A DNA stretch of 16,864 nucleotides from a virus. The stretch is from the IMG/VR virus record IMGVR_UViG_3300028920_000354. One strand, written 5' to 3'. Position numbers and translations under genes: made by a program. Below, piece by piece: positions 9,785 through 9,937 of this stretch (position 1 is the stretch's first letter; each line of letters starts with the position of its first letter). The notes below the pieces were generated by a model. The model had not been told where the DNA came from and did not search any database. It was given only the letters and a program-made list of their open reading frames with translations.

Positions 9785-9857
9785 GGGCGGTTGACAGATC
9801 GGCTTAGTGTACCGGGTTTTTACCCCGGTAAGAGGGGTTCGACTCCCCTACCGCTCT
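9785..9857 (+). tRNA. tRNA-Lys (anticodon UUU), copy 1
   Basis: Manual cloverleaf. Acceptor GGGCGGT/ACCGCTC with a G2-U71 wobble, D-arm with 3 bp plus a G-G mismatch, anticodon stem CCGGG/CCCGG, loop U-U-UUU-A-C, T-arm AGGGG-TTCGACT-CCCCT. 73 nt. Confidence 0.6.
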
Positions 9858-9862
9858 TTATC

Positions 9863-9937
9863 GGGCCCATAGCTCAGCCTGGTTAGAGCATCTCCCTTTT
9901 AAGGAGAATGTCGAAGGTTCGAATCCTTCTGGGCTCA
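9863..9937 (+). tRNA. tRNA-Lys (anticodon UUU), copy 2
   Basis: Acceptor GGGCCCA/TGGGCTC, U8, D-arm GCTC-AGCCTGGTTA-GAGC, anticodon stem TCTCC/GGAGA, loop C-U-UUU-A-A, T-arm GAAGG-TTCGAAT-CCTTC, discriminator A. 75 nt. Confidence 0.75.

What the first reader, a model, noticed from the sequence alone, without database searches (positions are those of the whole stretch)
9785..9937. Two adjacent, sequence-divergent tRNAs that both read as Lys-UUU
Both cloverleaves place UUU at positions 34-36, in loops UUUUUAC and CUUUUAA. Their acceptor, D and T arms are unrelated, so this is not a simple duplication. One copy (9785-9857) has a weak D-stem with a G-G mismatch. It may be a decoy, an isoacceptor resistant to a host anticodon nuclease (PrrC targets tRNA-Lys UUU specifically), or mis-assigned in identity. 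A spare Lys-UUU gene next to an RNA-repair module is exactly what an anti-PrrC strategy would predict.
Basis: partly seen in the sequence, partly recalled or inferred. Interest (0 to 1): 0.5.

Follow-up and report, generated by a model that had tools for sequence, protein, structure and literature searches.

The report
Phage lysine tRNA on cysteine-type scaffold
A large phage carries two back-to-back tRNA genes that both read lysine codons: one is ordinary, and the other has a body resembling a cysteine tRNA, which might let it escape bacterial enzymes that cut lysine tRNA, though nothing here tests that.

Summary
ARAGORN and Rfam both call tRNAs at 9785-9857 (48 bits) and 9863-9937 (72 bits). 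Each has a 7-nt anticodon loop with UUU at positions 34-36.

Copy 2 is a conventional Lys-type tRNA. Copy 1 is not. It has U73, a 4-nt variable loop, a G13.G22 mismatch, a C11-A12-G13/U23-G24 D stem and loop UUUUUAC. These marks are typical of tRNA-Cys. Positions 7-20 are identical to a phage tRNA-Cys(GCA) from IMG/VR. An anticodon-blind signature retrieved only tRNA-Cys (171 of 171 tRNAs).

Both copies share G1-C72, G2.U71, G3-C70 and C4-G69. Among 813 other phage-contig tRNAs, that end occurs only in two Lys tRNAs.

My best reading is that copy 1 is a remoulded, Cys-derived tRNA that now decodes Lys. It would be a structurally distinct second tRNA-Lys(UUU) within an array of at least 25 tRNAs, near RNA-ligase, HAD and ArfB-like genes. 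That fits the known use of phage tRNA-Lys against PrrC and PARIS. Charging and nuclease resistance are untested, no relatives of copy 1 exist, and simple Lys codon supply remains a live rival.

The parts
9785..9857 (+). tRNA copy 1, anticodon UUU. Layout: GGGCGGU UG ACAG AUCGGCUUA GUGU A CCGGG UUUUUAC CCCGG UAAG AGGGG UUCGACU CCCCU ACCGCUC U. It combines a Cys-type core (U73, 4-nt variable loop, G13.G22, A46, G48) with a Lys-type acceptor top (G2.U71).
   Evidence: 48 bits; cloverleaf table; signature scans and alignment A4
9858..9862 (+). 5-nt spacer (UUAUC) between the two tRNAs. This implies a dimeric precursor. Neither gene encodes CCA.
   Evidence: read directly from the sequence
9863..9937 (+). 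tRNA copy 2, anticodon UUU. It has a conventional scaffold: GCUC/GAGC D stem, U20, 5-nt variable loop, loop CUUUUAA, A73, plus G2.U71.
   Evidence: 72 bits; 48; the profile classifier puts Lys first, with Arg close behind
8861..8931 (+). tRNA with CUA anticodon (amber suppressor), the first member of the same array
10096..10168 (+). tRNA-Asn(GUU), the next member of the array
10426..10497 (+). tRNA-Asp(GUC)
11368..11439 (+). tRNA-Gln(UUG)
12862..12934 (+). tRNA-Trp(CCA)
13803..14471 (+). RNA ligase (PF09414; motif I KMDG). Context only; a functional link to the tRNAs is inferred.
14733..15092 (+). RF-1 domain protein with GGQ (ArfB or peptidyl-tRNA-hydrolase-like). Context only.
15089..15592 (+). 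HAD_SAK_2 domain protein (the HAD domain of 'Swiss Army Knife' RNA-repair proteins). Context only.

Best explanation
Copy 1 is a real, probably functional phage tRNA that reads AAA/AAG. Its core most likely descends from a tRNA-Cys gene. It acquired a UUU anticodon and the same acceptor-stem top (G1-C72, G2.U71, G3-C70, C4-G69) as the conventional tRNA-Lys next to it. In other words, it is an alloacceptor-remoulded tRNA.

Lysyl-tRNA synthetases recognise mainly the anticodon. The class I enzyme additionally needs G2.U71 and cares little about position 73. Copy 1 is therefore most likely charged with lysine (inferred).

The phage would then make two tRNA-Lys(UUU) species with almost no body sequence in common. 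The likely benefit is that Lys decoding survives host nucleases that deplete tRNA-Lys(UUU), such as PrrC, RloC or PARIS AriB, because these also read the anticodon stem, loop positions 32/38-41 and other body features (inferred). The ligase/HAD/ArfB-like genes downstream could repair tRNA or rescue stalled ribosomes (inferred).

Shown here: the gene, its anticodon, its structural marks and its resemblances. Not shown: expression, charging and nuclease resistance.
For: Real tRNA:
-.
- The sequence is identical in a second sample.

Cys-type core:
- An anticodon-agnostic signature shared with E. coli cysT retrieved only tRNA-Cys(GCA): 126/126 tRNAs in 120 bacterial loci and 44/44 in IMG/VR.
- A looser pattern without the anticodon-stem constraint, rerun on IMG/VR, gave the same 44 plus one more, 45/45, so 171 tRNAs in all.
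- The added hit, L202:2281-2351, is a phage-encoded Cys(GCA). Its positions 7-20 are identical to copy 1, and it shares A37, C38, G48, T loop UUCGACU, A66 and U73.
- In L202 that Cys gene lies just upstream of a Lys(UUU), the same order as here.
- For 23 of 24 reference tRNA-Cys, copy 1 is the best match among this phage's first 21 tRNAs. For E. coli-type Lys references it ranks 19th of 21.
- In an unbiased set of 806 IMG/VR tRNAs, R13.R22 occurs in 14/15 Cys and 2/124 Lys. The C11-A12-G13/R22-U23-G24 D stem occurs in 6/15 Cys and 1/124 Lys.
- No Cys(GCA) gene was found among 25 tRNAs in 46 kb of the contig.

Lys-type ends:
- The GGGC/GCUC acceptor top is shared with copy 2. It occurs in only 2 of 813 other tRNAs, both Lys.
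- G2.U71 is enriched in Lys(UUU): 13/114 against 26/689, p = 0.0015.
- L323 Lys(CUU) combines G2.U71, U73 and loop UUCUUAC.
- Literature (PMC9976931): Lys identity rests on the anticodon plus A73. G2-U71 is essential and A73 marginal for class I LysRS.

No recoding:
- AAA sites in one gene (PcfJ) align with K/R, and never C, in 44 homologues.
- The radical-SAM CxxxCxxC motif uses TGY codons.

Defence context:
-.
- AriB reads U36-A-A-U-C|A41, and T5 escapes through changes at positions 39 and 41 (PMC12409363). Copy 1 has U36-A-C-C-C-C41 and copy 2 has U36-A-A-G-G-A41.
- Phage tRNA-Lys rescues phages from PrrC170 (PMC11555353).
Against: - No relative of copy 1 exists in IMG/VR, the GTDB representatives or JGI metagenomes. 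There is therefore no covariation or conservation evidence of selection. The only other strains are about 99.95% identical overall.
- Overall identity to Cys tRNAs is only 0.70-0.74, against up to 0.70 for other isotypes.
- A profile classifier trained on diverse phage tRNAs makes copy 1 an outlier for every isotype, and it scores below all 15 phage Cys members.
- Its variable loop and T arm are also nearly identical to E. coli tRNA-Glu, so the ancestry is mosaic.
- U73 is a major CysRS determinant. Substituting A73 lowers charging by class II LysRS, and G2.U71 is an antideterminant for E. coli class II LysRS (PMC9976931). The host, its LysRS class and its tRNA-Lys sequence are unknown.
- No promoter-like site was found between the terminator at 9689-9724 and copy 1.
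- Lys is the most used amino acid (9.6% of codons), so plain gene dosage could explain a second gene.
- Other phages carry 2-3 Lys(UUU) genes on ordinary scaffolds.
Confidence: 0.45

Rival explanations
1. Plain supply. The phage simply needs a lot of Lys decoding, so it keeps two tRNA-Lys(UUU) genes. The odd scaffold of copy 1 is a historical accident with no role in defence evasion.
For: - AAG (53.9 per 1000) and AAA (42.4 per 1000) are the first and third most used codons, and Lys makes up 9.6% of 9593 codons.
- No CUU Lys tRNA was found among 25 tRNAs.
- The array also holds Ile(UAU), Arg(CCU) and Arg(UCU), matching the phage's preference for ATA and AGG.
- 3 of 120 IMG/VR loci hold 2-3 Lys(UUU) genes.
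Against: - Duplicating copy 2 would be the easy route to higher dosage.
- Copy 1 instead needed a three-base anticodon change plus a re-made acceptor top on a foreign scaffold, which suggests selection for a different body.
- The phage also carries Arg(UCG) and Arg(GCG) for codons it barely uses (CGA 1.0 and CGG 2.8 per 1000), so codon supply does not explain the whole array.
Confidence: 0.25
2. Copy 1 is a decaying or inert relic of a tRNA-Cys gene. Its anticodon drifted to UUU and it is not used in translation.
For: - It has the lowest Rfam score of the seven tRNAs in the window (48 bits).
- It has a mismatched D stem, and its MFE fold is not a cloverleaf.
- It is an outlier for all isotype profiles.
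- It is a singleton with no relatives.
Against: - All other stems are fully paired.
- U8, A14, G18-G19, A21, U33, A37, G53-U54-U55-C56, A58 and C61 are all in place.
- The R13.R22 mismatch is the normal state of tRNA-Cys (14/15). E. coli tRNA-Cys also fails to fold as a cloverleaf in silico.
- Drift would not be expected to produce exactly UUU in a correct U33/A37 context together with the same acceptor top as the neighbouring Lys tRNA.
Confidence: 0.1
3. Copy 1 keeps cysteine identity, or a dual Cys/Lys identity, through U73 and its Cys-type core. It would then insert Cys at Lys codons, as deliberate or tolerated mistranslation.
For: - U73 alone confers Cys acceptance on minihelices and is a major CysRS determinant (PMC9976931).
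- The core marks are of Cys type.
Against: - The GCA anticodon is the other major CysRS determinant, and all three bases are changed.
- G15 is U here.
- The acceptor top is Lys-like and unlike any of the 15 phage Cys tRNAs (0/15 with G2.U71).
- Lys codons make up 9.6% of the phage's own genes, and AAA sites are K/R in homologues, so Cys insertion would damage the phage itself.
Confidence: 0.08
4. Copy 1 is a decoy or inhibitor. It binds and occupies a host tRNA-Lys nuclease without serving in translation.
For: - PMC12409363 raises the possibility that over-expressed viral tRNAs inhibit AriB.
- Copy 1 keeps the UUU anticodon that such nucleases select.
Against: - A decoy should mimic the host tRNA-Lys body, and copy 1 is the copy that does not.
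- There is no evidence of unusually strong expression: no promoter-like site lies directly upstream.
Confidence: 0.07

Closest known systems
Phage T5 tRNA-Lys(UUU) that neutralises the PARIS AriB nuclease (PMC11464382, PMC12409363), and phage tRNA-Lys that rescues phages from PrrC170 (PMC11555353)
   Same: A phage-encoded UUU tRNA sits in a tRNA-rich region alongside Asn(GUU) and Thr(UGU)/Thr(CGU) genes. It differs from E. coli tRNA-Lys at the sites AriB reads (positions 38-41).
   Different: - T5 uses an ordinary Lys scaffold with two substitutions (U39A, A41C). Here there are two Lys(UUU) genes, one on a foreign-looking scaffold with U73, U32 and C38.
- Host, nuclease and resistance are all unknown for this phage.
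T4 Pnkp plus Rnl1 repair of PrrC-cut tRNA-Lys (as summarised in PMC10264068)
   Same: An RNA ligase gene and a phosphatase-type domain lie in the same phage region as the Lys tRNA genes.
   Different: - No polynucleotide kinase was recognised.
- The ligase is of the PF09414 type.
- An ArfB-like RF-1 protein is present.
- The genes lie 4-6 kb away with other genes between, and a link to the tRNAs is only inferred.
Alloacceptor tRNA remoulding / anticodon shifts (PMC4783518, PMC3923123)
   Same: The tRNA's body resembles one acceptor family while its anticodon belongs to another.
   Different: - The described cases are in mitochondria and eukaryotic nuclear genomes and mostly involve one base change.
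- This case is in a phage, involves all three anticodon bases plus the acceptor top, and sits next to a conventional tRNA with the same anticodon.
Proteobacterial and phage tRNA-Cys(GCA) (E. coli cysT, L006:915-988; IMG/VR L202:2281-2351)
   Same: U8, R9, A10-C11-A12, R13.R22, U23-G24-U25, A26, A46, no nucleotide 47, G48, T loop UUCGACU, A66 and U73. The match to L202 also covers G9, G13, U15 and C38.
   Different: The anticodon is UUU rather than GCA. Positions 13:22 are G.G rather than A.A or G.A. The acceptor stem is GGGCGGU/ACCGCUC with G2.U71. The D loop is 2 nt longer.
tRNA-Lys of organisms with class I lysyl-tRNA synthetase (Borrelia burgdorferi; PMC9976931)
   Same: U35, U36 and G2.U71. 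The discriminator is unimportant for this enzyme.
   Different: Only the acceptor and anticodon marks were compared. The host's LysRS class is unknown. Lys tRNAs of phages of two alphaproteobacteria (phiCbK, RcXuper) do not consistently carry G2.U71.

Membership tests
tRNA (Rfam RF00005) | Covariance-model score above the gathering score, with a cloverleaf and a 7-nt anticodon loop | tested here: met
   48.0 bits (copy 1) and 72.0 bits (copy 2) against a gathering score of 29. Both match the full-length model.
tRNA-Lys, class II LysRS identity set (E. coli) | U34, U35 and U36 in the anticodon | tested here: met
   Both copies have UUU at positions 34-36, with U33 and A37.
tRNA-Lys, class II LysRS identity set (E. 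coli) | Discriminator A73, and no G2.U71 antideterminant | tested here: not met
   Copy 1 has U73. Both copies have G2.U71. The rule is taken from PMC9976931.
tRNA-Lys, usual bacterial/phage scaffold | GCUC/GAGC-type D stem with C13-G22, a 5-nt variable loop, and C32/A38 | tested here: not met
   Copy 1 carries G9, A12:U23, G13, U32 and C38, each found in 10% or fewer of 124 Lys tRNAs, and it scores at the 12th percentile of Lys members. Copy 2 meets the feature, with Lys ranked first by the classifier.
tRNA-Lys for class I LysRS | U35, U36 and a G2.U71 pair at exactly that position | tested here: met
   Both copies have these. G2.U71 is enriched in Lys(UUU) tRNAs, 11.4% against 3.8%, p = 0.0015.
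tRNA-Lys for class I LysRS | The host actually uses a class I LysRS | not testable with these tools
   The host is unknown. The phage's tRNAs show mixed nearest relatives: E. coli for Gly(UCC), Val and Gln, and RcXuper for Asn and Gly(GCC).
tRNA-Cys | Discriminator U73 | tested here: met
   Copy 1 has U73. All 15 of 15 phage Cys tRNAs have U73.
tRNA-Cys | GCA anticodon | tested here: not met
   The anticodon is UUU.
tRNA-Cys | Core marks: a purine13.purine22 mismatch with A46, no nucleotide 47 and G48, plus G15:G48 in E. coli | tested here: inconclusive
   G13.G22, A46, the 4-nt variable loop and G48 are present. Position 15 is U rather than G, as in phage Cys L202. R13.R22 occurs in 14/15 Cys and 2/124 Lys. 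However, copy 1 scores below all 15 phage Cys members in the profile test.
Nuclease-evading phage tRNA (T5 type) | Sequence differs from the host isoacceptor at the nuclease's recognition or cleavage site | tested here: inconclusive
   Both copies differ from E. coli tRNA-Lys at positions 38-41, but the true host tRNA-Lys is unknown.
Nuclease-evading phage tRNA (T5 type) | Resists cleavage and rescues infection | not testable with these tools
   This needs an experiment.

The most novel reading that the evidence does not exclude
Copy 1 is a naturally occurring hybrid-identity tRNA: a cysteine-type body (U73 and a Cys-like core) carrying a lysine anticodon. It would be charged wholly or partly with cysteine, or would switch acceptor depending on the host's synthetases. 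A phage would then deliberately place Cys at Lys codons, or use an uncharged or mischarged Lys-reading tRNA as a weapon or sensor during infection.
Probability: 0.08. Interest if true: 0.85.

Novelty: new variant of a known kind. Interest (0 to 1): 0.45.

Why it matters
Phage tRNAs are now known to defeat tRNA-cutting defences, and tRNA-Lys(UUU) is the best-documented target (PrrC, RloC, PARIS). The known escape route is a few point changes on the normal scaffold.

If copy 1 is a working Lys tRNA built on a different scaffold, it shows a second route. Swapping the whole body while keeping only the anticodon and acceptor marks the synthetase needs would blunt any nuclease that also reads the body.

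It would also be a clear prokaryotic-virus example of alloacceptor remoulding. It gives a simple test object for which features LysRS, CysRS and anticodon nucleases really require. The shared G2.U71 also predicts a host with a class I, or G.U-tolerant, lysyl-tRNA synthetase.

Tried and rejected
- **BLAST of copy 1.** Searches against cultured phages and E. coli genomes gave only T-arm fragments or nothing.
- **Synteny through neighbouring proteins.**
  - PcfJ-like homologues (about 40% identity) sit on 320-438 kb contigs but are not syntenic.
  - Homologues of the 373-aa hypothetical protein are at most 48% identical, and their contigs hold no related tRNAs.
- **Exact or near-exact copy-1 patterns.** There were no hits in IMG/VR or the GTDB representatives. 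Only chance hits came from JGI metagenomes and for the D-arm 14-mer.
- **Whole-sequence identity against E. coli tRNAs.** Cys came first (0.71) by a small margin. The control was poor: only about half of the phage's tRNAs picked their own isotype. I therefore did not rely on this alone.
- **1-NN and naive-Bayes isotype classifiers on about 810 IMG/VR tRNAs** (71% and 75% leave-out accuracy). Copy 2 classified as Lys or Arg. Copy 1 was an outlier for every class, so 'copy 1 = Cys by global profile' is rejected. Only the idiosyncratic core marks and the L202 and proteobacterial matches support Cys ancestry.
- **Sense-codon recoding (AAA = Cys).** Rejected.
- **Copy 2 as a remoulded Arg(UCU/CCU).** It resembles Rhodobacterales and Ralstonia tRNA-Arg at 76-81% identity. 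However, it lacks A20, has A73, and is not close to the phage's own Arg tRNAs. Rejected.
- **Host inference from tRNA similarity.** The signal was mixed.
- **Ibba et al. 1999.** The paper could not be read, so the G2.U71 rule is cited from the 2023 review.
- **Run accession.** No paper mentions SRR8554435.

Full report
**Observation**

ARAGORN finds seven tRNA genes on the + strand of the window. Two have anticodon UUU, at 9785-9857 and 9863-9938. Rfam's tRNA model scores them 48.0 and 72.0 bits against a gathering score of 29.

The Infernal alignment of copy 1 gives a full-length cloverleaf with loop UUUUUAC and UUU at positions 34-36. It shows one non-standard pair, G13.G22. Copy 2 has loop CUUUUAA.

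The 261 bases around the pair are identical in the source contig (ENA ERZ27252253 k141_2989609, 95,131 bp) and in an independent Logan assembly of SRR8554435.

**Anatomy**

Copy 1 reads GGGCGGU UG ACAG AUCGGCUUA GUGU A CCGGG UUUUUAC CCCGG UAAG AGGGG UUCGACU CCCCU ACCGCUC U.

Copy 2 reads GGGCCCA UA GCUC AGCCUGGUUA GAGC A UCUCC CUUUUAA GGAGA AUGUC GAAGG UUCGAAU CCUUC UGGGCUC A.

- Copy 2 has the common scaffold: C13-G22, U20, a 5-nt variable loop, C32/A38 and A73.
- Copy 1 has U73, a 4-nt variable loop, a purine-purine 13:22 mismatch, A12:U23, G9 and U32/C38.

The weak D stem is not a sign of decay. The cloverleaf of copy 1 lies 2.7 kcal/mol above the MFE, while that of genuine E. coli tRNA-Cys lies 4.6 kcal/mol above its own.

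**Where the body of copy 1 comes from**

Its D arm, variable loop, T loop and discriminator resemble E. coli tRNA-Cys, which I fetched and aligned.

Signature scans:
All 126 matching tRNAs were Cys(GCA), mostly from beta- and gammaproteobacteria.
- In IMG/VR the same pattern gave 44 of 44 Cys.
- Dropping the anticodon-stem constraint and rerunning on IMG/VR returned the same 44 and one more tRNA (45 of 45, 171 in all). This is a phage-encoded Cys(GCA) at L202:2281-2351, inside a tRNA array.

The L202 match:
- Positions 7-20 of that gene (UUGACAGAUCGGCU) are identical to copy 1.
- It also shares A37, C38, G48, the T loop, A66 and U73.
- It lies just upstream of a conventional Lys(UUU), the same order as copy 1 then copy 2.

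Rank and motif tests:
- For 23 of 24 distinct reference tRNA-Cys, copy 1 is the closest of this phage's first 21 tRNAs, with a mean margin of 0.075. For E. coli-type Lys references it ranks 19th.
- In an independent sample of 806 phage-contig tRNAs, a purine13.purine22 mismatch occurs in 14/15 Cys and 2/124 Lys. The C11-A12-G13/R22-U23-G24 D stem occurs in 6/15 Cys and 1/124 Lys.

**Limits of that inference**

- Global identity to Cys tRNAs is only 0.70-0.74, with other isotypes reaching 0.70.
- A position-profile classifier (75% leave-out accuracy) puts copy 2 in Lys, with Arg close. It makes copy 1 an outlier for every isotype, below all 15 phage Cys tRNAs and at the 12th percentile of Lys members.
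- The variable loop and T arm of copy 1 are also almost those of E. coli tRNA-Glu.
- I therefore rate Cys ancestry of the core at about 0.65-0.7, not as settled.
- No Cys(GCA) gene is present among the 25 tRNAs found in 46 kb of the contig. About 49 kb could not be read.

**Which amino acid**

Published identity rules (PMC9976931):
- Lys identity rests on the anticodon (U35 strongest) plus A73. A UUU transplant is enough to confer Lys acceptance on human tRNAs.
- Cys identity rests on U73, GCA and, in E. coli, G15:G48.
- Class I LysRS (Borrelia) requires G2-U71 and is nearly indifferent to position 73. The same pair hinders E. coli class II LysRS.

How the two copies compare:
- Both copies carry G2.U71.
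- In 813 other phage-contig tRNAs, G2.U71 occurs in 13/114 Lys(UUU) and 26/689 non-Lys tRNAs (Fisher p = 0.0015).
- The GGGC/GCUC acceptor top occurs only twice in that set, both in Lys tRNAs.
- One of them, L323 Lys(CUU), also has U73 and loop UUCUUAC, like copy 1. Its companion Lys(UUU) has G2.U71 too.
- RcXuper's Lys(UUU) also combines G2.U71 and U73.

I infer that copy 1 is charged with lysine, probably in a host whose LysRS accepts or requires G2.U71. This is inference, because the host is unknown and its tRNA signal is mixed.

Recoding is excluded as far as it can be:
- AAA sites in one gene align with K/R, and never C, in 44 homologues.
- The radical-SAM cysteines use TGY codons, and the ligase catalytic Lys uses AAG.

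**Context**

All genes run on the + strand.
- The contig region holds at least 25 tRNAs.
- An NAD-salvage set lies to the left.
- NADAR, radical-SAM, vault-protein-like, NUDIX/NrtR, GGDEF and PcfJ-like genes are also present.
- Between 4 and 6 kb downstream of the pair lie an RNA ligase, an RF-1/ArfB-like GGQ protein and a HAD_SAK_2 protein.

**How it most likely works**

Host nucleases that deplete tRNA-Lys(UUU) are established defences, and phage tRNA-Lys is an established counter (PMC11464382, PMC12409363, PMC11555353, PMC10264068).
- AriB reads U36-A-A-U-C|A41 plus body contacts.
- T5 escapes through changes at positions 39 and 41.
- Restoring the E. coli anticodon stem-loop in the T5 tRNA does not restore cleavage.
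- Copy 1 (U36-A-C-C-C-C41, foreign body) and copy 2 (U36-A-A-G-G-A41) both differ from E. coli tRNA-Lys at these sites.

Two Lys decoders with unrelated bodies would be hard to remove with a single nuclease. The ligase, HAD and ArfB-like genes could mend tRNA and free stalled ribosomes. All of this is inferred.

**Rivals**

- Plain supply is a serious alternative. Lys is the most used amino acid and AAG the most used codon. Also, 3 of 120 sampled phage loci carry 2-3 Lys(UUU) genes.
- A dead relic, a Cys-charging hybrid and a decoy are less likely, for the reasons given in the rival entries.

**Novelty**

The kind, a phage tRNA-Lys(UUU) in a counter-defence setting, is known. The variant is a second Lys(UUU) on a Cys-like scaffold with a Lys-type acceptor end. 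I found no description of this and no relatives.

Interest is moderate. The idea is testable and would interest tRNA and phage-defence specialists, but it rests on one sequence without functional data.

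Noticed in passing
window 8861-8931 (+): A tRNA with a CUA anticodon (amber suppressor; ARAGORN labels it 'Pyl' from the anticodon alone). It has A1-U72, U2.G71, A73 and a 4-nt variable loop. TAG ends 7 of 53 called genes, so suppression or late-gene recoding is possible.
   Followed up: partly
window 9546-9730 (+): A near-consensus sigma-70 promoter (TTGACT-17-TATAAT with an upstream TG, 9546-9574) is followed by a 16-bp terminator hairpin plus T run (9689-9724). Together they bracket a unit of about 150 nt just upstream of the Lys tRNAs. 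The unit has a possible 24-aa ORF starting at ATG 9588. No Rfam family matches.
   Followed up: partly
window 10564-11388 and 11368-11439: The GGDEF diguanylate-cyclase gene overlaps the start of tRNA-Gln(UUG) by about 21 nt.
   Followed up: no
window 2610-5426 (+): A 938-aa protein with major-vault-protein shoulder and repeat domains (PF11978, PF17795), which is unusual in a phage.
   Followed up: no
L177:4967-10483 and window 378-860, 5488-6204: A cluster of NAD-related genes: NAD synthase, isochorismatase/nicotinamidase, NAPRTase, a MazG-nucleotidyltransferase, NADAR and NUDIX-NrtR. This looks like an NAD+ reconstitution set against NAD-depleting defences.
   Followed up: no
L179:16718-16800 (outside the window, same contig): An 83-nt tRNA with a CAU anticodon and a 14-nt variable arm. 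It is one of three CAU tRNAs on the contig.
   Followed up: no
L177/L179 genes (53 genes): The codon usage is unusual for a proteobacterial-looking phage: ATA 34.6, AGG 27.9 and AAG 53.9 per 1000. The phage carries Ile(UAU), Arg(CCU) and Arg(UCU), but also Arg(UCG) and Arg(GCG) for CGN codons it hardly uses.
   Followed up: partly
L197:6141-6324 (Caulobacter phage phiCbK) and L198:3856-3943, 6351-6438 (Rhodobacter phage RcXuper): The annotated tRNA-Lys(CUU/UUU) genes of these cultured phages are 87-91 nt long with long variable arms, which is a class-II-type scaffold. RcXuper Lys(UUU) also has G2.U71 and U73. This is another case of Lys anticodons on non-Lys-looking bodies.
   Followed up: no
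L250, L251, L305, L323 (IMG/VR): Some phage contigs carry two or three distinct tRNA-Lys(UUU) genes (L250, L251, L305). In L323, both Lys(CUU) and Lys(UUU) carry G2.U71.
   Followed up: partly
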